Positions 2,636-64,000 of a stretch of 64,000 nt of DNA are shown piece by piece. Both the position numbers and the translations under genes were made by a program. Every line of letters starts with the position of its first letter. The first letter of the stretch is position 1. The notes below the pieces were generated by a model that saw only the letters and a list, made by a program, of their open reading frames with translations, was not told the DNA's origin and ran no database searches. Source of the stretch: Spirochaetia bacterium (GTDB taxonomy: Bacteria > Spirochaetota > Spirochaetia > WTKD01 > G963693115); the NCBI GenBank assembly GCA_965226055.1, contig CBDDCA010000006.1:160001-224000 (forward strand), given 5' to 3'.

Positions 2636-5600
2636 CTACGATGAAGGACATGCTACTTTATCAGTTCTATCCTTTGGCCACTGTGTGCCTTTTGTATTTT
2701 TATCAGCCATAGGAGAACCGGCAAAATAAGTAGAAGTTATCTGTGTCTTACATAGTCTCCATTTTGATAAATCTTGATCAAATGAAGAAGCACTGTGAAA
2801 TATAAAATCAGCTGCAGTAATTTTACTCACATTCCAATTTCCTATGTCTTTATCAAATGCAGTAGCCCTAAAGAACAAAAGCTGCATATTTGTCACTTCA
2901 CTTACATTCCAGTTTCCTATATCTTGATTAAAGGCATTTGCATTATTAAACATACCATTCATACTCTGAACTTGACTTACATCCCAACCTCCTATGTCTT
3001 GGTTAAATGTAGTCGCACTACTAAACATACTACCCATAGAAATAACTTTACTCACATCCCAATCTCCTATATCTTGATTAAATACAAAAGCAGATTCAAA
3101 CATAGAATTCATACTCTCTACATTACTGGTGTTCCACTGTGTTATGTCTCCATTAAAAGTACTACTATCATTATTGAATAAACTACTCATATCAGTAATA
3201 GCACTGGTGTCTATCATGTTGAGGTTGGGGCTATTGGTGTTTTGTCTCCCTGCTCCTCTTTCTGCAGTGATAATATCTTGCAGTGCTTTCTTTGTCGTTG
3301 GTCTATAATAGCTAGCTACTTGTCCTGCTAGTTTCACCAGCCCTGTCTCTACATTGATAGTCGCAAGTACTTTTCCTCCTGAATAAGATCCCGAAGTAAT
3401 TGTACACTGCACTACCCCGTAGTTATACTCAGTTATAGTAGAGTCATGTATGTTTGATTTATTTGCTATGCCTGCTATTGTTACTGTATTGGTATTTTTT
3501 GCAAATGTTACTGTTAGGCCTGTTTCTTCTTTGAGTGTGCTGTTATCGTTATCTATTGTGCTTTCATCACAGGTAAAGGTAAGTCCACTAGGACTGATAC
3601 TGGTAAGTACTCTCGTTGTATTTTGTGCGAGTGCTGTGCCTACTGTTGCTGATACCTTTGTGGCATTTCCTATCACTACTGCTAGCGTGCTGGCAGATAC
3701 TGCTGTTGCTTCTGCCGATACCTTTGTCTTTTTAAGGCTATTTACTGCTACTGCGGTGATATAGTACTTTGTATTCAATCGTAGATTGCGTATTGTATAG
3801 CTTGTTGCTCCTGTTGGCACATCGTCTTTTTCTGCTCCTTCTTGTGCATCGCTTGCCGCTTTTGCTTGCGTTTTTACTGTTGCTCCATCTATGTTTGTTT
3901 TTGAGGCTGCATAGTATACTATATAGTCTATTTGATTATCTCTTAAATCAGTTCCGTCTGCTGTCGTTCCTTTTACGGTAGGGGCTGTTATGGTAAGTAC
4001 TATGGTTGCTCCTTGTGCATTTGCTTGTATGGTGGGCTTTCCTGGTGCGGCATAGGCTTCTTTTGCGATAAACTCCTTGCGTAGTCCTGTTGCTTCTTTG
4101 CTGGTATCGGTGCTGTTTACTGCTTGCACTACTATTTCGTAAGTTGTGCCTACTGTCAATCCTGTCAGAGTGCTGTTGGTTGTGCCTGCTGCTACTGCTG
4201 TGGAGCTTCCTGCTGCTGTTTTTATTTGTGCTACTGTCCTTGTTGTACTGCCACTTTTGGCTACTTTGTATACTTTGTACGATACTTGTGCTACTGTTAG
4301 GGCATCTCCTTTGTTTGTTTTGTGGCTTGCATTGAGGCTGGGGGCTGTCCACGATATTGTTGCACTTCCTCCTGTTACTCCTCCTACTTGTATGTTGCTT
4401 ACTTCTGCGGGGGCAGTCGCCTGTGATGCGGTTGTTACACTTGCCACTGTCGATACTGCTTTTTTGCTTGTGTCTGTTTTTACTGCTACTTCTACCACAA
4501 AATGATACTTTGTTGCTCCTTTTATTGCTACTACTGGTGCTGTGTCTTCAGATACGCCTAAACTGCTAAGGGCAGAGACAGTGTACACTCCGCTACTTGC
4601 TGTGCCTATACTTACTCTTCTGCCTCTTTGTACTTCTGCTACTGTAGGGGTTGTGTCTTTCTGTAAGCCGTACACTGTGTATACTAGCTCATCATTGCTT
4701 GTTACTGTTGTGCCATCTTTGTTTTTTGCTCCTGTTATTGTGCTTAACTGTGTGAGTACGAGCTTTATTGTTCCTGCTGTGTTTGTTGATGGTGATACTA
4801 CCAGCTTGCCTGTTAAGGACGATGTAGGGGCTGTTGCTTTTGAGGTGGGGATAGTGCTTAATTCTAGTTTTTGTATCAGTGCAGGGTCTTTACTTTGTGC
4901 TTTCTTTGTTGCATAGGGATTGAGGCTGTTTATTGCTTCTATGCCTATGGTGTACACTGCTCCTTTTGTTCCTATAAATGTTCCTCGTAAGCTGCTGTTT
5001 CCTGCTATCTCTTGTGTTTGTACTCCTCCTATTGCTTTTATTTCTGCTATGCTTTTAGTACTCTGGTCTCCTGCTACTATGTATACTTTGTACTGTATTT
5101 GTGCCTGTGTGAGTTGTCTGTCATTGGGGGCTTTGTGCTTGCTGGTAATTGTTCCTTTTTGAAACTCGTACTGTACTGTATCGCTTGTTTGTGTTGATGT
5201 TTCAATAAACAGAGTGAGATTCTCTGGTGCGGGTGGGACAGTGGATACTGCATCATATACTGCTACTTTGCCAGTGAGTGTTGTTGGGGGGCTTACTCTG
5301 TTATTTTCTACTGTGAAAAAGGTAAAGCTATAGCTTTTTGCATTTGCTTGTGTTGATGATACTTCTATGCCATCTGCTATGCCAAAGCTAATGATGGTTG
5401 CTGTTCCTGTTATGCTTTTTTCTGCTACCAAGTTTGTGCCATCTAACATACGCAGGGTGTAGTACTTATTTGATCCAGGAGCTTGCTTAAAGGTTGCTTT
5501 TATTTGTATAACTCCTGTTGTTTTGTCTAGAGCAGGCTTGTTTTGAAAGAGATCTTCTGAGGGAGCTGTGAGTGAGTTGGGGGTAGTTATGTCTTTTGTT

Positions 5601-7336
5601 GCTTGGGTGCTTTTATTTTCTGAGTAATCATAGGTGAGTATTGTTATGGTGTATGTTTTTCCTTGCACAAGTTCTTCTACAAAGAATGCTGTCGTGGGAT
5701 AGGGTATTTTCTTCTCGTTCAGTACTGCAGTGCTTGTGCCTTTCTCTGCTATGCTTATGCTGTATTCTTTTATGTCCTTGTTATTGGCTTTTGTTACATC
5801 GGGGGCTGTCCATATTATCTGTGTGCCTATCTTTGCTGCTGATACAAAAGGATAGCTTGCTTGTATGCTTGTCACTGCATCGGGGGCGGTGCTATCTGCT
5901 GATGTGGTTACTGTGACTGTTGCTTCTGTTCCTTTGTTGCCTGCACTGTCCATTGATACGACTGCCACTGTATACTCGGTGGTTGCTTTGAGATCTGTTA
6001 TCTGCGTGTTTCTTACTGTTCTCTCTGTTATTGTCACTGTCTTTGCGGGAGTACTACTGTCCTTTTCTGTTGCTGTTATAGTCACTCCTGCATAGTCTCG
6101 TACATCGGGGGCTTGCCAGCCTACTACTATGCTTGTTGCTCCTCCTACTACACTTACATTGGTCGTAGGCTTTGTTGTCTTGTCTGTTGTTGCTTGTTCT
6201 TTTGACACTGCAGTGGAGTACTTTCCGTTTTGAGAAACATACACCTCTACTTTGTAAGTAAGCGTGCCATAGAGTTTTGTGAGTGCTATGCCATCTTTTG
6301 CTACATACACAGTGGCGTATTCTCTGTTATCTGCACTTGCTCCGCTGAGTGTTGCAGTACTGCTATTGTTCACAGTTTCTTCTACTACTACTGTATTTGT
6401 TGCGGTTGCTATCACTCGTACTAAGAGGCTTTTGTCCGTAAAGGTAACATTTCCCCACTTGATAAGTAGGCTTTCATCGGCTGGGCTATTGCTTTTATCG
6501 TTTGCTGTTACTGTAAGGTCTGCCTCTGGCAGTGGCGTTACTGTTTGTGAAAGCTGTGATGCTTGCACGCCTGTCAGTACTGTTGTAGGACTGCTTGTGT
6601 TATCATTTCTGTCTTTGTAGCGTATTTCTACATCATAGGATATGCCTGCAAGCGTGGAGACTTTTGAAAGTATAACTTCTCCTTGCTGTAGGTTCTGCAC
6701 GGTAGCTTGCGCAAGCACTATGCCACCAGTCGTGCTTTTTACCACTATCGTTGCTTCTGCTATGTCTGTCTTGCCTGATGCAAGTCGCTCTTTGTCCCAT
6801 GTTATTTTTATGCCATCCCCCGACTTCTCTACTCCTACCTGTGTCAATGTGTCCTGTGGTGCAGTAGTATCTATCAGTGTTGTAACAGAGCGTGTTGTTT
6901 TTGGTGATACTTCTGTGTCTTTTTGTGCCTCTATCTCTACAGTGTAGTCGGTGAGTGCTTGTAAGCCTTTGAGTTGGTACGATTGTCCTTGTTGAAAGAG
7001 TGTTTGATATTCTATTGCAGGAACACGCACTTGTATAGACTGTGCTGGTGCAGTTGATGTAGCTTTTACGACTACATGCGTGGCTTCGCTGGGAGCTTCC
7101 CAGCGTAACGAGAGTGTCCCATCGTTGCTTGCTACTTGTATCTGCACATTGGACACTGATGCGAGTGTCGGGGTTACTGGTGTTCCCCCTCCGCCTGATG
7201 AGGAACTGCTACTGCCCCCCGAACATCCTACGAGTACAAGGGTAGTCATTGCTAGCACTAAAAATAGTGCTACAACTATAAATATGTTCAGCTTACCATT
7301 AAGCCGATAGTTTAGTTCTTCATTACTTTTTTTCAT
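2636..7336 (-). CDS. large surface lipoprotein with fibronectin type III repeats and C-terminal BspA/DUF285 repeats
   Basis: Start moved to ATG 7336 (AGGAG RBS upstream); lipobox LVGC then Ser/Gly linker; FN3 motifs (W.AP, L...T.Y.V.V); C-terminal FNQDIGxWDVSxVxxM repeats. Confidence 0.85.
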   Translation of the reverse strand: MKKSNEELNYRLNGKLNIFIVVALFLVLAMTTLVLVGCSGGSSSSSSGGGGTPVTPTLASVSNVQIQVASNDGTLSLRWEAPSEATHVVVKATSTAPAQSIQVRVPAIEYQTLFQQGQSYQLKGLQALTDYTVEIEAQKDTEVSPKTTRSVTTLIDTTAPQDTLTQVGVEKSGDGIKITWDKERLASGKTDIAEATIVVKSTTGGIVLAQATVQNLQQGEVILSKVSTLAGISYDVEIRYKDRNDNTSSPTTVLTGVQASQLSQTVTPLPEADLTVTANDKSNSPADESLLIKWGNVTFTDKSLLVRVIATATNTVVVEETVNNSSTATLSGASADNREYATVYVAKDGIALTKLYGTLTYKVEVYVSQNGKYSTAVSKEQATTDKTTKPTTNVSVVGGATSIVVGWQAPDVRDYAGVTITATEKDSSTPAKTVTITERTVRNTQITDLKATTEYTVAVVSMDSAGNKGTEATVTVTTSADSTAPDAVTSIQASYPFVSAAKIGTQIIWTAPDVTKANNKDIKEYSISIAEKGTSTAVLNEKKIPYPTTAFFVEELVQGKTYTITILTYDYSENKSTQATKDITTPNSLTAPSEDLFQNKPALDKTTGVIQIKATFKQAPGSNKYYTLRMLDGTNLVAEKSITGTATIISFGIADGIEVSSTQANAKSYSFTFFTVENNRVSPPTTLTGKVAVYDAVSTVPPAPENLTLFIETSTQTSDTVQYEFQKGTITSKHKAPNDRQLTQAQIQYKVYIVAGDQSTKSIAEIKAIGGVQTQEIAGNSSLRGTFIGTKGAVYTIGIEAINSLNPYATKKAQSKDPALIQKLELSTIPTSKATAPTSSLTGKLVVSPSTNTAGTIKLVLTQLSTITGAKNKDGTTVTSNDELVYTVYGLQKDTTPTVAEVQRGRRVSIGTASSGVYTVSALSSLGVSEDTAPVVAIKGATKYHFVVEVAVKTDTSKKAVSTVASVTTASQATAPAEVSNIQVGGVTGGSATISWTAPSLNASHKTNKGDALTVAQVSYKVYKVAKSGSTTRTVAQIKTAAGSSTAVAAGTTNSTLTGLTVGTTYEIVVQAVNSTDTSKEATGLRKEFIAKEAYAAPGKPTIQANAQGATIVLTITAPTVKGTTADGTDLRDNQIDYIVYYAASKTNIDGATVKTQAKAASDAQEGAEKDDVPTGATSYTIRNLRLNTKYYITAVAVNSLKKTKVSAEATAVSASTLAVVIGNATKVSATVGTALAQNTTRVLTSISPSGLTFTCDESTIDNDNSTLKEETGLTVTFAKNTNTVTIAGIANKSNIHDSTITEYNYGVVQCTITSGSYSGGKVLATINVETGLVKLAGQVASYYRPTTKKALQDIITAERGAGRQNTNSPNLNMIDTSAITDMSSLFNNDSSTFNGDITQWNTSNVESMNSMFESAFVFNQDIGDWDVSKVISMGSMFSSATTFNQDIGGWDVSQVQSMNGMFNNANAFNQDIGNWNVSEVTNMQLLFFRATAFDKDIGNWNVSKITAADFIFHSASSFDQDLSKWRLCKTQITSTYFAGSPMADKNTKGTQWPKDRTDKVACPSS

Positions 7337-7433
7337 AATGATCTCCTTGTTGGTATCTATTATTGTGTAATTATCATTACACCTAAGCATCATTATAGTA
7401 CAAATACTATTTTTTGTGTTATCTCTATAAATT

Positions 7434-49644: not shown

Positions 49645-49684
49645 GTTGTAGGTGAGCTGAAATTCTTTCTTTATATGATTTGAC
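49645..49684 (+). repeat. solitary degenerate CRISPR repeat A
   Basis: GTTGTAGGTGAGCTGAAATTCTTT[CTTT]ATATGATTTGAC: 30/36 identical to the array repeat (crRNA sense) plus a 4-bp insertion. Confidence 0.85.
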
Positions 49685-49745
49685 TTAACTTTAATATCAA
49701 GTAATGTAAAAAGCTACATAAAATATATATAGCACATAAGAATAT

Positions 49746-50228: not shown

Positions 50229-50267
50229 ACCTACTCCTACTTTCTAATATAGCACTTATTGGTTTTT

Positions 50268-50303
50268 GTTATAGATAAACTGAAGTTCTTTATATGATAT
50301 AAT
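50268..50303 (+). repeat. solitary degenerate CRISPR repeat B (intact extended -10 TGATATAAT)
   Basis: GTTATAGATAAACTGAAGTTCTTTATATGATATAAT: 30/36 ungapped, all differences are G/A transitions. Confidence 0.9.
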
Positions 50304-50392
50304 CAATTATGATGACGAGTGAATAAAGCTACTTAAAATATTTACAGCTACTTTTTAGCAGTCATAATTAAATAGAGAACAGGAGAATTTTT

Positions 50393-52132: not shown

Positions 52133-52346
52133 AAAAATCTCCTCATTGTAATAATGGTTTTGGCATTGATAAAAAAGAACAGATAAATAAAATGGACTAA
52201 ACCTGCCTCCTTTATTTAATTATACAAACTTTATACATGTTTCGCTTTGCTTCCTAGTATTTCTTTCTAAAGTATCTTTTTTTAGTTATCTATGCCCACC
52301 CCTAAAAATTACTACAGGAGTTTTATATTTGTACGATATAAAGTAT

Positions 52347-53291
52347 ATGCCTAATGTTGTCATAGAAGTACAGCATGATAACAATCATATCTCTCATAGA
52401 CGTGGTTTTTTAGAAATTGCTCATAATCGTACTACTGTAAAAGCAGTTGCTTATGATGAGATTGCTGCTCTTATTATGAGTTCTCATGCATCTACTATTT
52501 CCAATAGGGTATTACAGACATTAGCAGAACAAGGGATTCCTGTTATTATAGCAGGGAAAAATTTTCAACCGCTTTCTATAGCATTACCGCTCATTGGCAA
52601 TCATGATATTAGTACTCGCTTACGATATCAAATACAGGCAAGTGAACCTCTAAAGAAACAGGTATGGGCAAATATTGTACGTCAAAAGATTAAGAATCAG
52701 GCCACTGCACTTGCATACTTACAGAAAGATGAAGTTGCTATAAAACAAATACAAAGGTTAGCAACAAAGGTACTCAGTGGCGATACCACAAATATAGAGG
52801 CACAAGCTGCGAGAAAGTATTTTTCTGTATTATTTGGCAAAGAGTTTAAGCGAGATAGAAACTTGAATGATATTAATGGCATGCTTAATTATGGGTATAT
52901 GGTAATACGCAGTGCCGTAGCACGTGCTATCACAGGCTGTGGATTGCATCCAAGCTTAGGAATACACCATAAATCATGGACTGATACGATGCAGTTAGCA
53001 GATGATTTTATAGAGCCTTTTAGACCTATTATTGATGTATTGGTGGCATTGCTGATAAAAAAACATCATATAAAAGAGGTCACTCCTCAAGTGAAACGGG
53101 TACTATGTGCAAGCATAGATCTCCCAGTACAAGCCCCTCGAGGTGTTACTACAATTACTAAAAGCATACAGTATTTTTTACAATCTTTTGCTACAATACT
53201 GACACATAAAGGGGGTAGCCTTTTTAAGACAACATTTCCTTTACTAAAAGATATACAAAAATATGCCATACAGCAGTATACAGAGAAGTAG
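52347..53291 (+). CDS. cas1: type II CRISPR-associated endonuclease Cas1
   Basis: GD..N.EAQAAR.YF, N..LNYGY..IRS, LG.HH, LADDF.EPFRP; ATG 52347 chosen. Confidence 0.95.
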   Translation: MPNVVIEVQHDNNHISHRRGFLEIAHNRTTVKAVAYDEIAALIMSSHASTISNRVLQTLAEQGIPVIIAGKNFQPLSIALPLIGNHDISTRLRYQIQASEPLKKQVWANIVRQKIKNQATALAYLQKDEVAIKQIQRLATKVLSGDTTNIEAQAARKYFSVLFGKEFKRDRNLNDINGMLNYGYMVIRSAVARAITGCGLHPSLGIHHKSWTDTMQLADDFIEPFRPIIDVLVALLIKKHHIKEVTPQVKRVLCASIDLPVQAPRGVTTITKSIQYFLQSFATILTHKGGSLFKTTFPLLKDIQKYAIQQYTEK

Positions 53292-53292
53292 T

Positions 53293-53619
53293 ATGCACAG
53301 CAAATATAAGATTATGTGGATCTATGTAATGTTTGATTTACCAGTTATTACCAAAAAGGAAAAAAAAGAGGCTGCTCAGTTTAAGAATGCCTTACTTGAT
53401 TTAAGTTTTGAAATGGTGCAGTACTCAGTATATACACGCATATGTGGAAGTACAAGAAAAGTAGAAGTCGTGAGTAAGAAAATAGAGCATATATTTCCTC
53501 ATCAGGGGAAAGTAGATATTTTAGCAATAACAGATAAACAACATTCTGATATTATCTGTTTACGAGGAGAGGATAAAGAACCTCTACCACAAAAAAATCA
53601 GCAATTTTTACTATTTTAA
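53293..53619 (+). CDS. cas2: CRISPR-associated endonuclease Cas2
   Basis: MW..VMFDLPV, F.M.QYSVY.R, ITDKQ, QxLLF C-terminus typical of type II. Confidence 0.95.
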   Translation: MHSKYKIMWIYVMFDLPVITKKEKKEAAQFKNALLDLSFEMVQYSVYTRICGSTRKVEVVSKKIEHIFPHQGKVDILAITDKQHSDIICLRGEDKEPLPQKNQQFLLF

Positions 53620-53689: not shown

Positions 53690-56600
53690 ATTATATCATA
53701 TAAAGAATTTCAGCCCATCCACAACTGAATTATCATTTTCAAAAACTGTTTTTAAATTATATCATATAAAGAATTTCAGCCCATCCACAACAGCCAATGA
53801 TTACAGATAATAAAAGAAAAGATTATATCATATAAAGAATTTCAGCCCATCCACAACTAGAAGATACTAGTATTTCTTGTAGAAAATTATTATATCATAT
53901 AAAGAATTTCAGCCCATCCACAACTAAATCAACTCTAAATCATATACTCTATTAATTATATCATATAAAGAATTTCAGCCCATCCACAACAAAAGAAATA
54001 TTAAAAAAAAAACATAAAAAATTATATCATATAAAGAATTTCAGCCCATCCACAACAAAAATTTTACTAAAAGAAGTCATTGTAGGATTATATCATATAA
54101 AGAATTTCAGCCCATCCACAACAACCCATATGAACGGCTAGGAATTATACGCATTATATCATATAAAGAATTTCAGCCCATCCACAACCACTTTGGAGTC
54201 TCACCATCAGACGCACGAATTATATCATATAAAGAATTTCAGCCCATCCACAACAAATATGAAGTTTCATTGCAATACATAGAAATTATATCATATAAAG
54301 AATTTCAGCCCATCCACAACTGGCGACGATTACTTAGATGAAAAAGTCTATTATATCATATAAAGAATTTCAGCCCATCCACAACAATGATGGATTATAA
54401 ATATAGCATTGAAATTATATCATATAAAGAATTTCAGCCCATCCACAACCCCGAGAGTGTTCTTGTTAATAGCACGATGATTATATCATATAAAGAATTT
54501 CAGCCCATCCACAACAAAAAGCTAGTTCTTTTATTTCAGCGTTCGATTATATCATATAAAGAATTTCAGCCCATCCACAACATGGTTTCGAGCCTATAAC
54601 ATGATATACAAATTATATCATATAAAGAATTTCAGCCCATCCACAACACTTGCAGCAACGCAACGCGAAGTTAGACGATTATATCATATAAAGAATTTCA
54701 GCCCATCCACAACGATACGAAGATCAGACATACGAGGATGCACATTATATCATATAAAGAATTTCAGCCCATCCACAACTAACTAGTCCAGATCAAGTTA
54801 ATTTATCTAATTATATCATATAAAGAATTTCAGCCCATCCACAACTATAATGTGCATGGCATCGATCATGCCAGAATTATATCATATAAAGAATTTCAGC
54901 CCATCCACAACTGCCTCAAGTAGCAAACCCCGAAGGAGTGTATTATATCATATAAAGAATTTCAGCCCATCCACAACGAAGTAATCTTTATGCCAGTTAC
55001 GACGGAGATTATATCATATAAAGAATTTCAGCCCATCCACAACGTATAAAAGCAGCATTTAATAATCAATTTAATTATATCATATAAAGAATTTCAGCCC
55101 ATCCACAACTATAAGGCTAGTTGGTGACAGATTTAGGATATTATATCATATAAAGAATTTCAGCCCATCCACAACTACCAGGTATAGAAGGAAAATAATA
55201 TGGTCATTATATCATATAAAGAATTTCAGCCCATCCACAACAAAAGGCACAAGTGCCACAGTACTGAGCGAATTATATCATATAAAGAATTTCAGCCCAT
55301 CCACAACAAGAAAGCGTTCATTGTGTACTCTTCCGATATTATATCATATAAAGAATTTCAGCCCATCCACAACTATTCCCATTTATCGCCTTTTTTTACA
55401 ATCATTATATCATATAAAGAATTTCAGCCCATCCACAACTAAAAACGCGGGAGTTAACCCGTTAATGTTATTATATCATATAAAGAATTTCAGCCCATCC
55501 ACAACCTCCCGGCTTATGGCATACCACAATTATAATTATATCATATAAAGAATTTCAGCCCATCCACAACGACAGCAACAACAGACCGCCTACCTGTGAA
55601 TTATATCATATAAAGAATTTCAGCCCATCCACAACGTGCTTGACACATCAGATGAAGTGGAAGTAATTATATCATATAAAGAATTTCAGCCCATCCACAA
55701 CGTCAGCCGACAGCAATTACATCGGTAAATAATTATATCATATAAAGAATTTCAGCCCATCCACAACATATTTGATCAGTGGACACAATTTATTACAATT
55801 ATATCATATAAAGAATTTCAGCCCATCCACAACAAGGATAGACACATGTACGAAATGGAGCAAATTATATCATATAAAGAATTTCAGCCCATCCACAACT
55901 AGTAAGAACTCAGCCACTCGTAAAGCCAGATTATATCATATAAAGAATTTCAGCCCATCCACAACGAAAAAGTGCCAACTGATAAAGCATTAGATATTAT
56001 ATCATATAAAGAATTTCAGCCCATCCACAACGATCGCGGTTGGCTTAGAAAAACTAAAGAAATTATATCATATAAAGAATTTCAGCCCATCCACAACATA
56101 ACGAAAAGTTAGTTACAAAGAGATACGATTATATCATATAAAGAATTTCAGCCCATCCACAACAGAGTATATCGATTGCGATCATTCGGATCTATTATAT
56201 CATATAAAGAATTTCAGCCCATCCACAACTACAAAAGCAGATATTCAAGCGAGAAGACAATTATATCATATAAAGAATTTCAGCCCATCCACAACTGCGA
56301 TAGGGGAAGACCATACATCGTACGTATTATATCATATAAAGAATTTCAGCCCATCCACAACCATGATGGCAGGGGCTTTTGGCTTTGAGGGATTATATCA
56401 TATAAAGAATTTCAGCCCATCCACAACTACAAGATAGGCTAACGCTTTCTCTGTTTTATTATATCATATAAAGAATTTCAGCCCATCCACAACACAGGAG
56501 TTATTAAAGAGGCAGATCGCATTATTATATCATATAAAGAATTTCAGCCCATCCACAACAATTTTTGGCATATGGCGCGCACATTCAACATTATATCATA

Positions 56601-58735
56601 TAAAGAATTTCAGCCCATCCACAACACGTTATATCGAATACCTCAATGCCTCTTTATTATATCATATAAAGAATTTCAGCCCATCCACAACAACATTCCA
56701 ACCGCAGACAAACGAGCAGTAATTATATCATATAAAGAATTTCAGCCCATCCACAACTGGATAGCTGAAGTCCATATATGATATACTATTATATCATATA
56801 AAGAATTTCAGCCCATCCACAACATGTGGTTTCAGGGTAAGAAAATCAATCCAATTATATCATATAAAGAATTTCAGCCCATCCACAACACAACATGCAA
56901 AATTTGTACAAGCCCTAGCATTATATCATATAAAGAATTTCAGCCCATCCACAACATCTGAACAGCCAGTTATGAAGTCAGAACTATTATATCATATAAA
57001 GAATTTCAGCCCATCCACAACATTTTTGAGCAGTGGACGCAATTCATTACAATTATATCATATAAAGAATTTCAGCCCATCCACAACTATAGTTTGCAAC
57101 GGAAAGCAAGTACTAGAATTATATCATATAAAGAATTTCAGCCCATCCACAACCGTATCGGTATCTCTGTAGAAGTCATTAAAATTATATCATATAAAGA
57201 ATTTCAGCCCATCCACAACTAACATTGATTACGCACAGAAAAATTACATATTATATCATATAAAGAATTTCAGCCCATCCACAACAAGCTGTCCAATTTC
57301 TTCGTCAAACATGCCATTATATCATATAAAGAATTTCAGCCCATCCACAACCAAATTCTGAAGATTCTACAGGACTTCAGAATTATATCATATAAAGAAT
57401 TTCAGCCCATCCACAACCTAAGTTCATTATTTTTTATTGAATCATTTATTATATCATATAAAGAATTTCAGCCCATCCACAACAACTCATAGGAGAGGGC
57501 GATAATATTACAGATTATATCATATAAAGAATTTCAGCCCATCCACAACATTGGGACAAACCCATACCAGATATAAATATTATATCATATAAAGAATTTC
57601 AGCCCATCCACAACAAAGACATATTGTGGAATTATTTCGGCTTGATTATATCATATAAAGAATTTCAGCCCATCCACAACATGCCACAGGTGGCAAACCC
57701 TGAAGGAGTTATTATATCATATAAAGAATTTCAGCCCATCCACAACATTTTTTGTTTCGATATTATAGCTCCGTAAATTATATCATATAAAGAATTTCAG
57801 CCCATCCACAACCTGCTTACGGAGTACCAAAGTTATAGGAGTATTATATCATATAAAGAATTTCAGCCCATCCACAACCGCCTAATGTTTTCCCATATTT
57901 TATGGGTTATTATATCATATAAAGAATTTCAGCCCATCCACAACATTAAAAGTTATTTTATTATCTTGTATAGTATTATATCATATAAAGAATTTCAGCC
58001 CATCCACAACATAGTCCATGTAGGCAACAAAGTCAGAGCAATTATATCATATAAAGAATTTCAGCCCATCCACAACAGAGGCAATGGCAGACATATAAAA
58101 AGAGAATTATATCATATAAAGAATTTCAGCCCATCCACAACTAATATTTATTATTTTATTAAAGTCAGTGAATTATATCATATAAAGAATTTCAGCCCAT
58201 CCACAACATCACATGCAAAGTTTGTCCAAGCCCTCGCATTATATCATATAAAGAATTTCAGCCCATCCACAACTGGTTGGTTTCGCAAAACCAAGGAAGA
58301 TTAATTATATCATATAAAGAATTTCAGCCCATCCACAACAGGTATGCTTATACCTGTTGGAATCTGGGAATTATATCATATAAAGAATTTCAGCCCATCC
58401 ACAACTATAATCTTATTTATCATTGGAGCAATCCGATTATATCATATAAAGAATTTCAGCCCATCCACAACCAGCTTTCATACACACATACTTTGTACCT
58501 TATTATATCATATAAAGAATTTCAGCCCATCCACAACTAATACTAAACTTATTTGCTGCAAAGTCGTATTATATCATATAAAGAATTTCAGCCCATCCAC
58601 AACTACCATGTAATAGGTGTCGATTTTGCAGAAATTATATCATATAAAGAATTTCAGCCCATCCATAACTTAATGACTGCCAGAAATGACGAGATCGCAA
58701 TTATATCATATAAAGAATTTCAATCTATCCACAAC
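53690..58735 (-). CRISPR. type II-C CRISPR array, 77 repeats of 36 bp and 76 spacers of about 30 bp
   Basis: Repeat ATTATATCATATAAAGAATTTCAGCCCATCCACAAC (+), counted by eye; last two repeats near cas9 are degenerate; crRNA sense is the minus strand (tracr complementarity, TGATATAAT at repeat 3' end, terminator). Confidence 0.97.
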
Positions 58736-58740
58736 GACAA

Positions 58741-61700
58741 TTACTTTTTTGCAAAGGAAATTATGCCAGTAGGACTCATATGTACTTTTTGTAATTTATA
58801 CCCCTGTAATTTAGCGAGAGAAGTATATCGTTCCCTTACTCTTACTTTTTGATCATCTTTTTTTTCTTCTTTTATTTCTTTTGCACGTGCAGCATCATTG
58901 GCTTCATGCAACTCTGCAAGATCCAGATCTATACTCCCTGACATCTTACACACTCGATATAGCTTTCCTTCGGGAGCATGAGGAGGGTAGAGCATGACAG
59001 TATCATTATTGTGTAAGCGCATAAGCATTTTTTGAGTAGGGTATTTCTTTTTCCACTGAGGCACATAGTTTTTTTTATTTGCATGATATCTCGTTATCAT
59101 TTCTCCTTGCCATTTTCCTTCTTCATCTTCGTATATTTCATATGCCCAGTTTCCTGCTGAAATATACCCTTTATATGCTTTTCCTTGTTTGTCTTTTTGA
59201 ATGCCTATTACTGTCTCTTTTGTAATGATTTTTACTTTTCTTATCCCAGTTTCTTGAAAGCATTGCTCTAGGGCTTCTTTTATATTTCCATTATGCCTAT
59301 TACAATAATCTTGTAGCAATTTTCTTGTTTTAGGGCTTGCTATTTTCTTAATCATTGGTACAGTTAAATCCAAAATATTCTTGTGAATTCCCACATACCG
59401 AGCTTTCTTTGTATCCTGTGTACTCGTATCAGATCCTGGTACGCGGAAGCTATAGGCTTGCTCCTCAAGTAACTGCCCTGTCTTTCCTCTGTCACTTTTA
59501 TGTGATACTATTATTTTCTGCATACTCCGTTCAACATCTTCACGAAATCCTTCCCATGGAGCAGGAATAGCCTCTCTATGCTTTTGACTAAACAAATGTA
59601 TATCTGCATATTCTGCAGCACTTGCCCATTGCGATACTTTATTCAGTATTCCTCTCTCAATACATCCTACCACAACAGCATCCACTGCATGATGTCTATG
59701 ATCGTCTCTATTCTTTTTGCCATCATCCCCTAGCACTTTATTTAGTCCCCACATATGTCGTAACCAAGCACTGAGTTTTCCTGGTGAAACCCATATATCC
59801 ACAGGATGAGATTTTTCTTTCAAGCTCTCAAGATAATATTGAGCTACCTTTGCAAAATACTGAGATGAATGTAATTGATGTGCTAAAAATCCTTCTTCTT
59901 GTTCAAAACGTTTCATAGCATCACTTTTAAAACGCCAGCTTTTATTAGAAGGAAGCAGATTTGCATTGTTGTCTATGCTTTTCCATTTGTTAGTAGTTCC
60001 CCATGCTTCATGGGGAGTTTTGTTCATCTTTTCCTTATTTGCTCCTGATTTACAGAGTACTTTATTAGCAAAGCTATTATCAAGGGTACGAGAAAAAGGC
60101 AAAATATGATCGATATGCGTAGCATGAGAAAATACATCATCTTTTGTTATCTTCTCATTTGAATAAGGGCAACGTCTATCATTAGGATTATCTGATAATT
60201 CTTTCCATAATCTATATTTTTCTCTATCACTACGAGAAGGAGATACTATGCCATAGTCATCTTCTAATTCTTTGTTTATTTTTTCATTTTTCGCTTGGTT
60301 ATCTCTTAGTTTTTTATCATAATCACTTTTGGTTTGTTTTCCCATAGAAAAATCACGCAATAATTCTAGCACTATTTGTTGGGGCTTGTCATATCTGCGT
60401 ATAAGCTCATTTACTACTTTTTGTAGCTGATTAAGTCCTACATGTACGGTTGGATTTGTTATCTTACCATATTGAGCTTCCTGTCTTTTTCGTCCTTTTA
60501 TTTTCTCATCAATGTCTTTTGCTTCTTTCTTGCCTATGCAGTATCGAGAGAGTATTTCCCCATAGTATGGCAACACACTATATCCCTTAGCACGTGTTCC
60601 TCGATGATCTCCGTAGCCAGCTTGCTTTACTGCCTCATCATAGGTGATAATATCTTTTTGTAGACACGCTACTATCTTGGTGAGTGCTGTCTTTGATAAG
60701 TTACAGTACCCTTTTGGCAACTTCACAATCTTAGATATGCATTCATCTGCTGTTTCTTTGTCAAGATTCCACTCACTAACACACAATACTTCTCGTAATT
60801 TTTCATCCGAATTTTCAGTATCTAAAAGGAGTGCTATAAAATTATTTTTTCTCTCCATATCCCAGTCTTGCCATATTTTTTTCCCTATAATTTTTGATAC
60901 CACTGCAGTAGTTCCATTATGCTTAAAATTTTTAGTGTCTACTCGTTCAAAATTGATAGATACTGTCCCTTCTAAATGATACTCTTTCTTTATATAGGTA
61001 GAAACATCCTTTGGCTTAGCACTGCTTGATTTATTCTCCAGATAGTTTTTTAGCTTATCTCGTAATAGTATATCTACAGGAAACTCTTCTCTATTATGAA
61101 ATATGCGTATATTGTGTATATCTTGTAGTATTCTAAATTCTTGTGCAATAGGCATTGCCCATGCACAACGATGCTCATCTTCAAAAATACACAGGCCTGG
61201 TGTTTGAGGCTTTAGTTTACGCTGATAAAATATTACCTCTTTTATTTTCTCGTATGCTTCATTGGAGAACAACTGGTGGGTATGAGATAGCTCCTTTTGT
61301 TGCTTCCATATCGTATCAAATTCTTTCTCATACATCTCACGTGAAAAATACAGCTCATAGTCAGTTTTTCCGGGAGTTAGCGATTTTGCCCTCACTGCCT
61401 TTTTCTGCTTAAAGCGACTGTAGAGATATTCCCCTAATGTTCGCATATTATTTTTATGCAGCTCTTTTTCTAACTCTTTTATGACAGGCTTGATTTTCCC
61501 TGTTTCATCATCTCCATCAGATAGTCTATTACTCTTAAAGCCTCTCCGCTGATTTATATGAAATATCGCTCGCCCAAATTCATGTGCAGAAATAGCTTCA
61601 TCCAATGCCTTTGCTCGTAGCTCATAGGGGTTTTTCTGCTGTAGTGCAAGACGCTCCTCCTTATCTGCAGGGAAAAACCCAAAATGAGTGAGCTGAGAGA

Positions 61701-61920
61701 GAATATGCTCCCGTCTTTGTAAGTATCTGTCTCTCCGTCTTCTTGCTGAACGGGCAGTTTGCCGTTCCTGATTGAGTGGTGCATAGGTCTTATCTGCTCT
61801 GCTATTTGAAAAAATACGCACTCCTGTGCCTTTTAGAGCAACTGGCGATCCTTCTTGTACTTCAAGGACTGCCCATCCTATCGAATTAGTGCCTAGATCA
61901 AAACTAAAACGAATACTCAT
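58741..61920 (-). CDS. cas9: type II-C CRISPR effector Cas9 (about 1059 aa)
   Basis: RuvC-I FDLGTNSIGWA, Arg-rich bridge helix, HNH IDHILPFS...N...NKVL, RuvC-III HHAVDA; ATG 61920 with GGAGG RBS; no csn2 or cas4. Confidence 0.97.
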   Translation of the reverse strand: MSIRFSFDLGTNSIGWAVLEVQEGSPVALKGTGVRIFSNSRADKTYAPLNQERQTARSARRRRDRYLQRREHILSQLTHFGFFPADKEERLALQQKNPYELRAKALDEAISAHEFGRAIFHINQRRGFKSNRLSDGDDETGKIKPVIKELEKELHKNNMRTLGEYLYSRFKQKKAVRAKSLTPGKTDYELYFSREMYEKEFDTIWKQQKELSHTHQLFSNEAYEKIKEVIFYQRKLKPQTPGLCIFEDEHRCAWAMPIAQEFRILQDIHNIRIFHNREEFPVDILLRDKLKNYLENKSSSAKPKDVSTYIKKEYHLEGTVSINFERVDTKNFKHNGTTAVVSKIIGKKIWQDWDMERKNNFIALLLDTENSDEKLREVLCVSEWNLDKETADECISKIVKLPKGYCNLSKTALTKIVACLQKDIITYDEAVKQAGYGDHRGTRAKGYSVLPYYGEILSRYCIGKKEAKDIDEKIKGRKRQEAQYGKITNPTVHVGLNQLQKVVNELIRRYDKPQQIVLELLRDFSMGKQTKSDYDKKLRDNQAKNEKINKELEDDYGIVSPSRSDREKYRLWKELSDNPNDRRCPYSNEKITKDDVFSHATHIDHILPFSRTLDNSFANKVLCKSGANKEKMNKTPHEAWGTTNKWKSIDNNANLLPSNKSWRFKSDAMKRFEQEEGFLAHQLHSSQYFAKVAQYYLESLKEKSHPVDIWVSPGKLSAWLRHMWGLNKVLGDDGKKNRDDHRHHAVDAVVVGCIERGILNKVSQWASAAEYADIHLFSQKHREAIPAPWEGFREDVERSMQKIIVSHKSDRGKTGQLLEEQAYSFRVPGSDTSTQDTKKARYVGIHKNILDLTVPMIKKIASPKTRKLLQDYCNRHNGNIKEALEQCFQETGIRKVKIITKETVIGIQKDKQGKAYKGYISAGNWAYEIYEDEEGKWQGEMITRYHANKKNYVPQWKKKYPTQKMLMRLHNNDTVMLYPPHAPEGKLYRVCKMSGSIDLDLAELHEANDAARAKEIKEEKKDDQKVRVRERYTSLAKLQGYKLQKVHMSPTGIISFAKK

Positions 61921-61937
61921 AAATACCTCCAATGGAC

Positions 61938-61966
61938 TTGACATATATGTATATATCCTATATTAT
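61938..61966 (+). promoter_or_regulatory. sigma70 promoter for tracrRNA
   Basis: TTGACA-17 bp-TATTAT immediately upstream of the anti-repeat. Confidence 0.65.
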
Positions 61967-62082: not shown

Positions 62083-63054
62083 CTAAGAGGAAGTGTTGTT
62101 TTTCATCTTTGCGATATGCTTTTGCATCTTTTCCTTTGAGAAGATCTCATCATATACAGAATGATAAATTTTTCCATTTTTATATGCATTTGATACATCT
62201 CCTATAAAAGAACTAAAGTCTTCATTCTTTAAACATAACTTATTCATTGTTTCCCAATCAAGACGATCCTTATTTCTTGCAGGAAACAATACTCTCGAAG
62301 CATCAATGTCTTCTATGCTAAGCTCTATTATGCCTATGCCAAAAAAATTACTTAAGCGTGATAATTCTCCATGCACATCTTCATCTTTTTTTATATTAGA
62401 GGCCACTAGATAGCCCTCATGAGCCCACGATGAATTAGAGAGAGCTTGAAAAAAACTTTCCCTATAATTACTTCTATCTATCTTTATTTTTAATTCAAAA
62501 GAGAATAACTGAAGAGCATTCATATCAGATAATGTATTAAACTCAAGTATAGTCTTATCCCAATATTCCAAAGGTAAATAAAAACCTACTATATCGGGGT
62601 GTAACCATTCACCTGGATCATTCTTTTTCGATTTCTCATGGAATATTGTTTTCGTATATACCTTTTTTCTTCTGTTAAATTTTTTATTGTTATAGACGAA
62701 ATAAGATAATAATGGGTGCAAATCACGTTCTGAATATGATGAAACACTACTACTCTCTTGCTTAGGAGTGGTATCTACACTGTTTATAGGCAATTCTTCA
62801 TCTGCGAATTTAAGCTCATGTTTCCTTGATTTTAGAAAAAATTTCTGAGGATTTTTTCCTATTGAAAAAAATTTTGAAGATGAAATCTTTACATTTGTAT
62901 ATAAATGTGCCCCTAACGTCGCATAAGGAGTTTTTCCTTCACTTGTAAGCTCCTTGTTTAATCCTAAATCTACTCCTTTGTCCCAAATTTCTTGACTACT
63001 CAGAGGAGCATTAGCTCCCTTCAGTACCTCTTCTGCAAAATCTAAATATGTCAT
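62083..63054 (-). CDS. HARE-HTH + restriction-endonuclease-like protein (HrgA/COG2958 family)
   Basis: N-terminal GKTP.ATLGA HTH; ERDLHPLL, WLHPDIVG, SFELK, FQA.SNSSWA.EGYLV. Confidence 0.8.
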   Translation of the reverse strand: MTYLDFAEEVLKGANAPLSSQEIWDKGVDLGLNKELTSEGKTPYATLGAHLYTNVKISSSKFFSIGKNPQKFFLKSRKHELKFADEELPINSVDTTPKQESSSVSSYSERDLHPLLSYFVYNNKKFNRRKKVYTKTIFHEKSKKNDPGEWLHPDIVGFYLPLEYWDKTILEFNTLSDMNALQLFSFELKIKIDRSNYRESFFQALSNSSWAHEGYLVASNIKKDEDVHGELSRLSNFFGIGIIELSIEDIDASRVLFPARNKDRLDWETMNKLCLKNEDFSSFIGDVSNAYKNGKIYHSVYDEIFSKEKMQKHIAKMKNNTSS

Positions 63055-63124
63055 TTATATACCACCTGTAGTAACAGTATACTATATCTTTTAGAATAGC
63101 GTTACTCTCAAGCTATTTTTACGT

Positions 63125-63226
63125 GTTACATAGCATGTTCCATGTACCTTGTGCTATAAGACTATCCCCACCTCAAAAGCAACAGCCCCTGTTACATAGC
63201 ATGTTCCATGTACCTTGTGCTATAAG
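63125..63226 (+). repeat. 36-bp direct repeat around a 30-bp insert (ectopic spacer-integration footprint)
   Basis: GTTACATAGCATGTTCCATGTACCTTGTGCTATAAG at 63125-63160 and 63191-63226; the insert is the reverse complement of 4826-4855. Confidence 0.9.
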
Positions 63227-64000
63227 AGTGGCTACTTCACTGCGTAGGGTGTGTTGTCCTATGTGTACAAAATCTATACGAAGTGCTGCTAATAGTGTTG
63301 TTTCTGCATTGCTATACTGTCGTTCGGGTCCGATGAAATAGACAAAATGAAGTACATGCTCAACACTGTTGTTAGTATCGTTTTCATGCTCCATACAAGA
63401 CGTTTGCTCTTTATTGAATGCGGAAGTGGATGCTTGATGGGAGAATGTACGATGCAACAGTTCACAGAGTGAAGTTGCTGCGTTTTGTTGCACTATCACG
63501 GACAGAAATCTTGTAGAGGCATGTTCTTTTTGCTTGCATGTGTCAAGCAACGACAGTGCATTTTCTATTCCCACACATGTGTACACGGAGGGAACACAGC
63601 ACTCCTTGCCTTGCATAGCTCCCAACAATAACAACTCATCTGCTGTATTCCAAAACGATGCGTTTAGATAGCTTTTCTCTCCTAGTTCGGGAACATAGCA
63701 TATAATATTGCCCACTCCCATTGTACTGAGATCCCGCAGTAGTCGTGCCATTACAGGAGGACGCGGATGAGCAAGCACTATGGTAGATCTATAGCGTTTC
63801 GGAACAAACGGGATCTCTACACGAAAATGCATGTCTATGCCATCACTGTGTAGGGCTAGTATTCTTGCTGTGCCAAACCCTCTCTCAATAATGCCTGCTT
63901 CAAGCTCTGTCCCTTCTTTTGATTGCGATAATATGGTAGTAATATGTTTTGTTCGTATATCATGTGCAGAAAGATGCACACGATATGTTTGTACATCAGC
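63173..64000 (-). CDS. rsmE: 16S rRNA (uracil1498-N3)-methyltransferase (5' end beyond the window)
   Basis: LAHPRP, MGV, EKSY, FIGPERQY, IG..TLRSEVA SPOUT motifs; frame stays open to the window end. Confidence 0.85.
   Translation of the reverse strand, partial: ADVQTYRVHLSAHDIRTKHITTILSQSKEGTELEAGIIERGFGTARILALHSDGIDMHFRVEIPFVPKRYRSTIVLAHPRPPVMARLLRDLSTMGVGNIICYVPELGEKSYLNASFWNTADELLLLGAMQGKECCVPSVYTCVGIENALSLLDTCKQKEHASTRFLSVIVQQNAATSLCELLHRTFSHQASTSAFNKEQTSCMEHENDTNNSVEHVLHFVYFIGPERQYSNAETTLLAALRIDFVHIGQHTLRSEVATLIAQGTWNMLCNRGCCF

What the first reader, a model, noticed from the sequence alone, without database searches (positions are those of the whole stretch)
63125..63226. Footprint of off-target Cas1-Cas2 spacer integration into rsmE, with a self-derived spacer
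Seen: a 36-bp sequence is duplicated with exactly the array's 66-bp period. It resembles the repeat at both ends (GTT...TGcTATAAg versus GTT...TGATATAAT). The 30-bp insert (63161-63190, actatccccacctcaaaagcaacagcccct) is the exact reverse complement of 4826-4855 in the large lipoprotein gene 58 kb away, and the match stops at both 30-bp boundaries. Removing 66 bp restores an rsmE ending ...MLCNT-stop (TAA at 63119); the present ending is ...MLCNRGCCF-stop. Inference: a natural full-site ectopic integration of chromosomal DNA that remodelled a housekeeping C-terminus and created a two-repeat proto-array. It should not be autoimmune because the pseudo-repeat should not pair with the tracrRNA.
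Basis: partly seen in the sequence, partly recalled or inferred. Interest (0 to 1): 0.85.

Follow-up and report, generated by a model that had tools for sequence, protein, structure and literature searches.

The report
Off-target CRISPR spacer insertions in genes
The enzyme that writes CRISPR memories in this uncultured spirochaete has pasted a 30-letter piece of the cell's own DNA into the end of a housekeeping gene, duplicating 36 letters of that gene just as it duplicates a CRISPR repeat, and three similar scars lie elsewhere in the same genome.

Summary
63125-63160 and 63191-63226 are identical 36-mers. The 30 bp between them is the exact reverse complement of 4826-4855, and the match stops at both ends.

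The geometry equals that of the window's type II-C array: 36-bp repeat, and 69 of 76 spacers are 30 bp. The assembly holds one cas1.

A same-genus genome (G001) with the same cas9/cas1/repeat lacks exactly these 66 bp, and its RsmE ends ...MLCNT. A contig from another study also skips the 66 bp.

- The 30-mer has 10 identical chromosomal copies in a DUF285/fn3 lipoprotein family of about 40 members, so the donor copy cannot be named.
- Resemblance to the true repeat is modest: 15 of 36 overall (p = 0.10), ends only p about 0.01.

New: a genome-wide scan finds 36+30+36 structures at four loci and at no neighbouring period. The other three are in a defence HerA tail, a Cas13-like gene and an unnamed ORF.

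Verdict: natural off-target Cas1-Cas2 full-site integration. This is a known kind (Nivala 2018), here recurrent and in type II-C.

The parts
63125..63160 (+). Pseudo-repeat copy 1. This is the duplicated target; it holds the last 12 sense codons' worth of ancestral rsmE, read on the minus strand.
   Evidence: Identical to 63191-63226. Single copy with 1 mismatch in G001.
63161..63190 (+). Ectopic 30-bp spacer. It now supplies codons RGCCF plus the TGA stop of rsmE on the minus strand.
   Evidence: Exact reverse complement of 4826-4855 and of 9 further genomic copies; the match ends at both borders. Absent from G001 and from the X5 contig.
63191..63226 (+). Pseudo-repeat copy 2
63173..64000 (-). 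rsmE (16S rRNA methyltransferase family). It runs off the window; the full gene encodes 293 aa.
   Evidence: Pfam PF04452. Full ORF in L021. C-terminus compared with G001.
62083..63054 (-). Downstream HARE-HTH gene. The insertion lengthens the rsmE-to-HARE-HTH spacer.
   Evidence: Pfam PF05066
4826..4855 (-). One of 10 identical candidate protospacers
2636..7393 (-). DUF285 + fn3 lipoprotein gene (1585 aa), one of about 40 paralogues
   Evidence: Pfam PF03382 and PF00041. Paralogue table. The family covers 197,624 bases, 8.8% of the assembly.
52329..53291 (+). cas1, the only cas1 found in the assembly
   Evidence: Pfam PF01867, NCBIfam TIGR03639 type II Cas1. 1 match in G000. Aligns to type II-A Cas1 structures.
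53263..53619 (+). cas2
   Evidence: PF09827, TIGR01573
53620..53689 (+). Leader: the integration end of the canonical array
   Evidence: Nearly identical in G000 and G001; the degenerate repeats lie at the other end, next to cas9.
53690..58735 (.). Canonical array: 77 repeats of 36 bp; 76 spacers (69 of 30 bp, 5 of 29, 1 of 31, 1 of 28)
55242..55271 (.). Canonical spacer 's23', an exact match to a DUF285-family paralogue at G000 C4:929-958
58741..61944 (-). cas9 (1067 aa). No csn2 or cas4 lies beside it, so the locus has a II-C layout.
   Evidence: TIGR01865, RuvC_III, HNH_4
50263..50311 (.). tracrRNA anti-repeat. A second repeat-like copy lies at 49645-49698.
   Evidence: Inverted repeats I1-I25. 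Duplex energies.

Best explanation
The window's type II-C Cas1-Cas2 integrase carried out a complete (two-ended) spacer integration at a non-CRISPR site, the last 36 bp region of rsmE.

Inferred steps, from the established chemistry of Cas1-Cas2:
1. The complex, loaded with a 30-bp fragment, attacked the two strands 36 bp apart. That spacing is set by the integrase's own ruler.
2. Gap filling then copied the 36 bp on both sides of the insert.

Shown here: the product (36+30+36), the donor sequence, the empty ancestral site, and the matching geometry of the cell's only adaptation module.

The fragment came from a 30-bp stretch present in 10 identical copies in a multicopy DUF285/fn3 lipoprotein family. 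It came either from the cell's own chromosome or from kin DNA.

The insertion was tolerated because it changes only the last residue of RsmE (T becomes RGCCF).

The resulting two-repeat unit is not a working CRISPR unit for Cas9, because its repeat cannot pair with the tracrRNA.

Three more scars of the same geometry in the genome say the event is recurrent in this lineage.
For: Geometry:
- Identical 36-mers 66 bp apart around a 30-bp insert.
- The canonical array has 36-bp repeats, and 69 of 76 spacers are 30 bp. In G001, 180 of 191 spacers are 30 bp.

Donor:
- The insert is identical to 10 other genomic 30-mers, and the identity stops at both borders in 10 of 10.

Enzyme:
- 1 cas1 match in the assembly, named type II Cas1 and Cas2 by NCBIfam.
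- G000 and G001 share 98% identical Cas1, 91% identical Cas9 and the same repeat, yet 0 of 76 and 0 of 191 spacers are shared. I take this as a sign of active adaptation.

Ancestral state:
- G001 has one copy of the 36-mer (35 of 36 identical) and exactly 66 bp fewer. Its RsmE ends ...MLCNT.
- An 18,564-nt contig of run X5 (another organism label, another study) skips the same 66 bp.

Reality of the sequence:
- In runs X1, X3 and X4 an 88-nt unitig (63132-63219) runs repeat-spacer-repeat. Its depths are 7.6, 4.0 and 5.3, like the flanks.
- The shared 38-mer forms a separate node at about twice the flank depth: 16.9, 8.0 and 9.1.

Specificity of the signature:
- With a 36-nt window, at most 3 mismatches and unrepeated flanks, periods 52-90 give hits only at 66 (4 loci) and at 72, 75 and 87 (tandem protein repeats).
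- Varying the repeat length with a fixed 30-bp insert gives hits only at 36 and at 42 (LRR).

Site choice:
- The terminal 9+9 positions of the rsmE pseudo-repeat match the true repeat at 11 of 18 (empirical p = 0.007).
- Those of the second site match at 14 of 18 (p = 0.0001).
Against: - No biochemical test was done.
- Overall identity of the pseudo-repeat to the true repeat is only 15 of 36 (p = 0.10), and nothing leader-like flanks the site.
- The PAM of this Cas9 could not be determined, so it is unknown whether the donor has one.
- The runs that hold the filled allele come from one study (2 samples). They probably include the source of the assembly, so they check the assembler, not the biology.
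- Only one same-genus genome exists in the collection for the empty-site test.
- Two of the three extra loci (C, D) show no likeness to any of the three repeats, and their inserts have no traceable source.
Confidence: 0.88

Rival explanations
1. Assembly artefact: the duplication and insert were created by mis-assembly of reads from the multicopy lipoprotein family.
For: The insert belongs to a repeat family that breaks the assembly (contig C4 starts inside a paralogue). All runs with the filled allele are from one study.
Against: Logan unitigs, built independently of the assembly, give in 3 of 3 organism-A runs laid the exact graph of repeat-spacer-repeat. The spacer path is at flank depth and the 38-mer node at about double depth. 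The loose ends at 63161 and 63190 are the lipoprotein-family flanks, that is, separate paths.
Confidence: 0.02
2. A Cas-independent repair event: a staggered break with fill-in, or template switching, captured a 30-bp fragment and duplicated 36 bp by coincidence.
For: Templated insertions with flanking duplications are known products of break repair (recalled). No enzyme assay ties Cas1-Cas2 to the site.
Against: Both lengths equal the CRISPR geometry of this genome. Four loci share 36+30, and no locus was found at periods 52-65 or 67-71. Two pseudo-repeats resemble the ends of the true repeat (p = 0.007 and 0.0001).
Confidence: 0.05
3. The integration is real, but the fragment was not the cell's own DNA. 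It came from DNA of a related strain or a mobile element carrying a DUF285-family gene.
For: All three G000 spacers with a traceable source come from this one family: canonical s23, the rsmE insert and the HerA-site insert. The family makes up 8.8% of the genome; 0.088 cubed is about 7e-4 by my arithmetic. The HerA-site insert matches no present copy better than 28 of 30. G001 carries near-identical copies of the rsmE insert (97%).
Against: The rsmE insert is identical to 10 resident copies. Exact scans of IMG/VR found 0 viral contigs with either insert. Copy number and recombination in a 40-member family could equally explain over-sampling.
Confidence: 0.25
4. The unit is a decayed or specialised mini-CRISPR array (for example a regulatory repeat-spacer-repeat) rather than an accident.
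For: Mini-arrays with degenerate repeats that regulate cas genes or host genes are known in other systems (recalled). The site lies 4.4 kb from the array, beside cas9.
Against: The repeat is ancestral rsmE coding sequence, present once in G001. It has no complementarity to the anti-repeat beyond background.
Confidence: 0.03

Closest known systems
Non-canonical (off-target) spacer integration giving 'neo-CRISPR' loci, Nivala, Shipman & Church 2018 (E. coli type I-E). The paper itself is not held. I know it here only from passages in PMC7054753, bioRxiv 10.1101/148544 and PMC6698737.
   Same: Cas1-Cas2 inserts a spacer-sized fragment at a non-CRISPR genomic site and duplicates a repeat-length stretch of the target. 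Those passages say that off-target events were detected in the genome, that they can spawn new arrays, and that there is 'circumstantial evidence' in two other species.
   Different: Here the event is natural and fixed, with no over-expression. The system is type II-C with a 36/30 geometry. The empty site is seen in a sister species and the donor sequence is identified. Four events sit in one genome, all inside protein-coding genes.
In vitro off-target integration by type II-A Cas1-Cas2 (S. thermophilus; PMC6895254, passages read)
   Same: The type II integrase has intrinsic sequence preference. [quoted passage not shown] The second attack is placed by a ruler that keeps the repeat at 36 bp.
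   Different: Those events were mostly half-site, on plasmids, in vitro. Here there are full-site, repaired, heritable products in a chromosome. The II-C leader lies on the other side of the repeat relative to crRNA sense (inferred).
Self-targeting spacers in canonical arrays (review PMC6990116: only the search listing and the start of the abstract were seen)
   Same: Chromosomal DNA is taken up as a spacer. This genome and G001 also have 1 of 76 and 3 of 191 exact self-matching spacers in their canonical arrays.
   Different: The spacer sits outside any array, between repeats that Cas9/tracrRNA cannot use.
Transposon or casposon insertion with target-site duplication (recalled)
   Same: The same chemistry: two staggered transesterifications, then gap repair and a direct duplication of the target.
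   Different: The 'element' is a 30-bp fragment with no terminal repeats or genes. The duplication is 36 bp, the length of the CRISPR repeat.

Membership tests
Cas1-Cas2 off-target full-site integration (neo-CRISPR footprint) | The direct duplication of the target equals the resident repeat length | tested here: met
   36 bp duplicated; the resident repeat is 36 bp in 77 of 77 units.
Cas1-Cas2 off-target full-site integration (neo-CRISPR footprint) | The insert equals the resident spacer length | tested here: met
   30 bp; 69 of 76 resident spacers are 30 bp.
Cas1-Cas2 off-target full-site integration (neo-CRISPR footprint) | The insert is a copy of DNA found elsewhere, with the match ending at the insert's borders | tested here: met
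   10 of 10 genomic copies match 30 of 30 and differ in the adjacent base on both sides.
Cas1-Cas2 off-target full-site integration (neo-CRISPR footprint) | An intact adaptation module is present in the same genome | tested here: met
   cas1 and cas2 ORFs are intact. There is a single cas1 match. No spacers are shared with G001 despite 98% identical Cas1. Enzymatic activity itself is inferred.
Cas1-Cas2 off-target full-site integration (neo-CRISPR footprint) | Relatives have the empty site with a single copy of the target | tested here: met
   G001 lacks exactly 66 bp. The X5 contig skips 66 bp. Only 1 same-genus genome was available among the 41 searched.
Cas1-Cas2 off-target full-site integration (neo-CRISPR footprint) | The target resembles the repeat or the leader-repeat junction | tested here: inconclusive
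   Whole repeat: 15 of 36, p = 0.10. Terminal 9+9: 11 of 18, p = 0.007. There is no leader likeness beyond a T at -1.
Cas1-Cas2 off-target full-site integration (neo-CRISPR footprint) | The donor carries the system's PAM | tested here: inconclusive
   The PAM is unknown. No phage protospacers were found. The 4 exact self-protospacers give no 3' consensus.
Cas1-Cas2 off-target full-site integration (neo-CRISPR footprint) | The integrase catalyses insertion at this site | not testable with these tools
   Needs purified proteins and the empty-site DNA.
Functional type II CRISPR unit (crRNA for Cas9) | The repeat pairs with the tracrRNA anti-repeat | tested here: not met
   Duplex energy is -5.7 to -6.6 kcal/mol, against -43.0 or -30.1 for the true repeat; 2000 random genomic 36-mers give -7.2 +/- 2.8 and -8.6 +/- 2.6.
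Functional type II CRISPR unit (crRNA for Cas9) | The repeat sequence is that of the resident array | tested here: not met
   15 of 36 identical.
Simple tandem duplication (slippage) | The whole period is repeated, so the segment between the copies resembles a flank | tested here: not met
   The locus passed the filter requiring that at most half of the 30 flanking positions repeat. The insert matches a distant locus instead.

The most novel reading that the evidence does not exclude
In this spirochaete lineage the type II-C adaptation module acts as a recurrent endogenous mutagen of protein-coding genes.

At least four fixed off-target integrations, with 0, 1, 3 and 3 mismatches between their duplicated 36-mers, have done the following:
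- added 22-residue in-frame inserts to two genes;
- rewritten the C-termini of two others.
The affected genes include two defence genes: a HerA ATPase and a Cas13-like double-HEPN effector.

Two of the four scars lie within 5 kb of a CRISPR array, which hints at local search by the integrase.

Every G000 spacer with a traceable source comes from one surface-lipoprotein family of about 40 members. This hints that the integrase samples recombination intermediates of that family, or that the CRISPR system interacts with it.
Probability: 0.4. Interest if true: 0.8.

Novelty: new member of a known kind. Interest (0 to 1): 0.64.

Why it matters
Off-target integration by Cas1-Cas2 has been shown mainly with over-expressed E. 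coli proteins and in test tubes. According to the passages I could read, natural cases rest on 'circumstantial evidence' in two species.

This locus has every element that can be read from sequence:
- the product;
- the donor sequence;
- the empty ancestral site in a sister species carrying the same Cas system;
- the matching ruler of the only integrase in the genome;
- a within-genome control showing that the 36+30 signature is specific.

Three consequences follow.
1. CRISPR adaptation has a measurable mutational cost and output in nature. The events include in-frame insertions in genes.
2. The four sites give natural target sequences from which the poorly studied II-C integrase's preferences can be tested.
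3. The same scan (resident repeat length plus resident spacer length, with neighbouring periods as control) can be run on any genome with CRISPR to measure how common such scars are.

Tried and rejected
PAM and spacer orientation. These could not be settled.
- Searching the array against 50,697 phage records gave 14 records, all partial matches of 74-91% identity and none a full spacer.
- Searches of 5 family genomes with both arrays gave only other arrays, repeat-straddling hits, and the self-matches s23, t102, t103 and t162.
- The four exact self-protospacers show no 3' consensus in the minus-strand crRNA sense. They do share a T-rich 5' flank (TTTCTTC, TTTATTC, TTTATTG, GTTAGTG), which remains unexplained.

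crRNA and tracrRNA strand.
- Rfam gave nothing relevant.
- 0 terminator-like sites were found.
- Folds of four candidate tails were no better than shuffles: z = -0.65, -0.80, +0.40, -0.58.
- Only the duplex energy (-43.0 against -30.1 kcal/mol) and the TGATATAAT motif inside the repeat favour the minus strand.

Source of the inserts at sites C and D. There were 0 exact matches in IMG/VR and 0 matches with up to 3 mismatches in G001-G004. Exact scans of IMG/VR for inserts A and B also gave 0.

Other samples. A 22-mer of the left junction gave 0 hits in the JGI metagenome contigs.

Empty allele in the organism's own runs. No contig of X1, X3 or X4 joins across the 66 bp. Contigs drop rare variants, so this says nothing about polymorphism.

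Candidates and readings rejected.
- A fifth candidate, C6:574153 (29 of 36), has only a 31-nt repeat in a signal-peptide-like region. I left it out as ambiguous.
- I first read site B as two successive integrations (R1-S1-R2-S2-R3). Alignment of the query's own entry (P0002) with 10 of the other 120 listed homologues shows that S2 and R3 are conserved HerA coding sequence, so only R1-S1-R2 is an insertion.
- A scan of about 87 kb of G001 loci already in hand found only G001's second canonical array. The whole of G001 was not scanned.

The Nivala 2018 paper is not held. No supplements were consulted.

Full report
THE OBSERVATION

The repeat finder lists one two-copy family at 63124-63161 and 63190-63227: 38 nt, 100% identical, spacing 66. 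A script confirmed three things:
- 63125-63160 equals 63191-63226.
- 63161-63190 equals the reverse complement of 4826-4855.
- The neighbouring bases differ on both sides.

The extra base of identity at each end (T at 63124 and 63190, A at 63161 and 63227) is shared by flank and insert. The split could therefore formally be 36/30, 37/29 or 38/28. 36/30 is the only split in which the whole insert is donor sequence.

The 36-mer occurs nowhere else in the 2,249,164-base, 6-contig assembly.

THE SURROUNDINGS

The window holds a type II-C-like locus:
- cas1 (52329-53291, +) and cas2 (53263-53619, +).
- A 70-bp leader.
- An array of 77 repeats of 36 bp (53690-58735).
- A 1067-aa cas9 (58741-61944, -) ending 6 bp from the last, degenerate repeat.

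Of the 76 spacers, 69 are 30 bp, 5 are 29, 1 is 31 and 1 is 28.

The ectopic unit lies 4.4 kb beyond the cas9 end of the array, at the 3' end of rsmE. rsmE is a Pfam PF04452 gene whose full ORF encodes 293 aa. On the minus strand the gene now reads ...MLCN-RGCCF-stop, with the last five codons and the stop supplied by the insert.

A Pfam Cas1 search of the whole assembly finds one cas1.

The assembly has two further 36/30 arrays, at C1:13500-14190 and C3:31-2043. Neither has cas1 nearby.

ANCESTRAL STATE

Of 41 genomes searched, only G000 and the single same-genus genome G001 match the region. In G001 the two halves of the query overlap by 38 nt. The alignment shows a clean 66-column gap and one copy of the 36-mer with one mismatch.

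G001 has the syntenic cas9 (91% identity), Cas1 (98%), the same repeat in 192 units and a near-identical leader. None of its 191 spacers is shared with G000's 76. Its RsmE ends ...MLCNT-stop.

The insertion is therefore derived and arose in a lineage whose adaptation module is turning spacers over.

READS

Logan unitigs of three runs (two samples, one study, probably including the assembly's source) give the de Bruijn graph expected for repeat-spacer-repeat:
- A left-flank contig ending at 63153.
- A separate 38-nt node at depths 16.9, 8.0 and 9.1.
- An 88-nt unitig (63132-63219) through the insert at depths 7.6, 4.0 and 5.3.
- A right-flank contig from 63198.
- Flank depths of 6.9/6.7, 2.8/3.9 and 7.7/5.0.

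The inference rests on the graph and the depths.

An 18,564-nt contig from a run with another organism label and another study joins 63123 to 63190, skipping the 66 bp. This is a second, independent empty site.

THE DONOR

The 30-mer has 10 other exact copies, on contigs C1, C4, C5 and C6, plus 3 near copies. All lie at the same position in paralogues of the 1585-aa lipoprotein gene at 2636-7393, which carries DUF285 and fn3 domains.

BLAST finds about 40 paralogues. Together they cover 197,624 bases, 8.8% of the assembly.

The canonical array also contains a spacer (55242-55271) that matches a paralogue of the same family exactly, at C4:929-958. G001's array holds three exact self-matches.

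IS THE 36+30+36 SIGNATURE SPECIFIC?

I compared every 36-mer with the one P bases downstream. I allowed 3 mismatches, masked the three arrays, and required that the flanking (P-36)-mers not be repeated.

- For P = 52-90, hits occur only at P = 66 (4 loci), 72 (2), 75 (5) and 87 (2).
- The 72, 75 and 87 hits are tandem protein repeats: the GATATATC...CCATTAAA LRR modules and the C5:471000 array seen.
- With 5 mismatches the picture is the same. With 7 mismatches one ambiguous extra locus appears at P = 66.
- Fixing the insert at 30 bp and varying the repeat length from 30 to 42 gives hits only at 36 and at 42 (LRR).

The four loci are as follows.

A. rsmE; 36 of 36 identical between the copies.

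B. C1:29389-29490; 33 of 36.
- The insert at 29425-29454 matches DUF285-family copies at 28 of 30, with the match again ending at both borders. 23 copies match within 3 mismatches.
- It lies in the variable C-terminal tail of a defence-type HerA ATPase (PADLOC PDLC04102, E = 7e-188).
- A homologue alignment shows that the sequence up to ...MKCW is conserved and that only R1-S1-R2 is extra.
- The locus is absent from G001.

C. C3:2883-2984; 35 of 36.
- It is an in-frame 22-residue insert in a 1018-aa protein next to the C3 array.
- It is absent from all 4 other members of that protein family, including the G001 orthologue and a G000 paralogue.

D. C2:50051-50152; 33 of 36.
- It is in-frame in a 433-aa ORF with no family match.
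- G001 has a single copy of the target.

In 3 of the 3 loci that have a G001 counterpart, G001 shows the empty state.

By my arithmetic, about 1.3% of the genome lies within 5 kb of an array. Two of four scars do (A at 4.4 kb, C at 0.8 kb), which gives roughly p = 1e-3. That threshold was chosen after seeing the data.

SITE CHOICE

I used all genomic 36-mers as background, taking the better of the two orientations.

| Site | Whole-length identity to II-C repeat | Empirical p | Terminal 9+9 matches | Empirical p |
|---|---|---|---|---|
| A | 15 of 36 | 0.10 | 11 of 18 | 0.007 |
| B | 18 of 36 | 0.0075 | 14 of 18 | 0.0001 |
| C | 13 of 36 | 0.32 | 5 of 18 | 0.82 |
| D | 16 of 36 | 0.047 | 7-8 of 18 | 0.19-0.39 |

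Combining the four whole-length values by Fisher's method gives about p = 0.004-0.008 (my arithmetic).

A and B share with the true repeat G1 T2 T3 and T28 G29. T31. T33 A34 A35. The stricter pattern GTT-N24-TGNTATAA occurs at only 16 places outside the array, two of which are site A itself. That pattern was defined after seeing the data.

This fits what is reported for type II-A integrases: intrinsic recognition of the leader-repeat junction, with the second cut placed by a ruler (PMC6895254, passages). It does not prove it.

CONSEQUENCES

The pseudo-repeat pairs with the anti-repeat at 50263-50311 no better than random 36-mers. The values are -5.7 to -6.6 kcal/mol, against a background of -7.2 +/- 2.8 or -8.6 +/- 2.6 and a true-repeat value of -43.0 or -30.1.

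That alone does not explain tolerance of self-derived spacers, because canonical spacers with exact self-matches exist too.

All four scars sit where proteins tolerate change: two in C-terminal tails and two as in-frame 22-residue inserts in variable regions. This is what selection would leave.

COMPARISON WITH WHAT IS KNOWN, AND VERDICT

Off-target integration that duplicates a repeat-length target is established for E. coli type I-E in vivo. It has been proposed as a source of new arrays, with 'circumstantial evidence' in two other species (Nivala et al. 2018). I could not open that paper. I rely on passages in PMC7054753, bioRxiv 10.1101/148544 and PMC6698737.

Two full-text searches for natural or type II-C cases returned only these papers and in vitro studies. 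I found no report of such scars in a II-C host or inside genes, but subscription journals are not covered.

I therefore file this as a new member of a known kind. It is unusually well documented and it recurs within one genome.

The organism is an uncultured member of the Spirochaetia, by the title of G001's record.

Noticed in passing
L037:1890-1991 (G000 C1:29389-29490): A second 36+30+36 scar lies in the C-terminal tail of a defence-type HerA ATPase. The copies are 33 of 36 identical. The 30-bp insert matches DUF285-family genes at 28 of 30. The pseudo-repeat starts GTTATGGATCAGCC, like the II-C repeat's GTTGTGGATGGGCT.
   Followed up: yes
L019:2883-2984 (G000 C3) and L038:1052-1153 (G000 C2:50051-50152): Two more 36+30+36 scars, 35 of 36 and 33 of 36 identical between copies. 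Both are in-frame 22-residue inserts. Both are absent from the G001 orthologues. Their inserts have no traceable source.
   Followed up: yes
L019:2291-5347 (G000 C3); paralogue at L020:10100-11893: A 1018-aa protein lies beside a 31-repeat 36/30 array that has no cas1. It carries RxxxxH motifs near both ends (RNYLNH and RNNVAH, conserved in its relatives). It has no hit in Pfam, NCBIfam, PADLOC or PDB sequences, and only 4 relatives among 5.8 billion proteins. One relative is the 597-aa neighbour of the C1 array. It is a candidate divergent Cas13-like effector that may borrow the II-C adaptation module.
   Followed up: partly
window 55242-55271; G001 array (L022): Canonical arrays carry exact self-matching spacers: 1 of 76 in G000 (from the DUF285 family) and 3 of 191 in G001. 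The four protospacers share a T-rich flank (TTTCTTC, TTTATTC, TTTATTG, GTTAGTG) on the side that should not hold the PAM if crRNA is read from the minus strand.
   Followed up: partly
window 2636-7393 and about 40 other loci of G000: A family of 4.7-kb DUF285 + fn3 lipoprotein genes makes up 8.8% of a 2.25-Mb genome. It supplies all three G000 spacers whose source could be traced.
   Followed up: partly
window 49645-49698 and 50263-50311: Two repeat-like (anti-repeat) sequences lie in the same orientation, each followed by a similar AAAGCTAC..TAAAATAT..AGC element. This may mean two tracrRNA genes, or one gene and a relic. The strand is unresolved.
   Followed up: partly
G000 C3:555-921 (L019): The C3 array holds two pairs of adjacent identical spacers. 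The partial spacer at the contig start recurs further in.
   Followed up: no
G000 C6:574153-574290: A 31-nt duplication at period 66 lies in the N-terminal, signal-peptide-like part of a 264-aa ORF. It could be an old scar or a protein-level repeat.
   Followed up: partly
L017/L018 (G001 C1:1472496-1477589): G001 has a second, larger Cas9 (open frame 1404 aa) with its own 36/30 array, whose repeat is different (ATTATACCATATAAAAAATTTTTACCGCCCCGTAAC). G000 lacks it.
   Followed up: no
window 47502-49613: A 703-aa pentapeptide-repeat protein gene whose DNA is a 33-bp periodic array (44 overlapping copies in the repeat finder).
   Followed up: no
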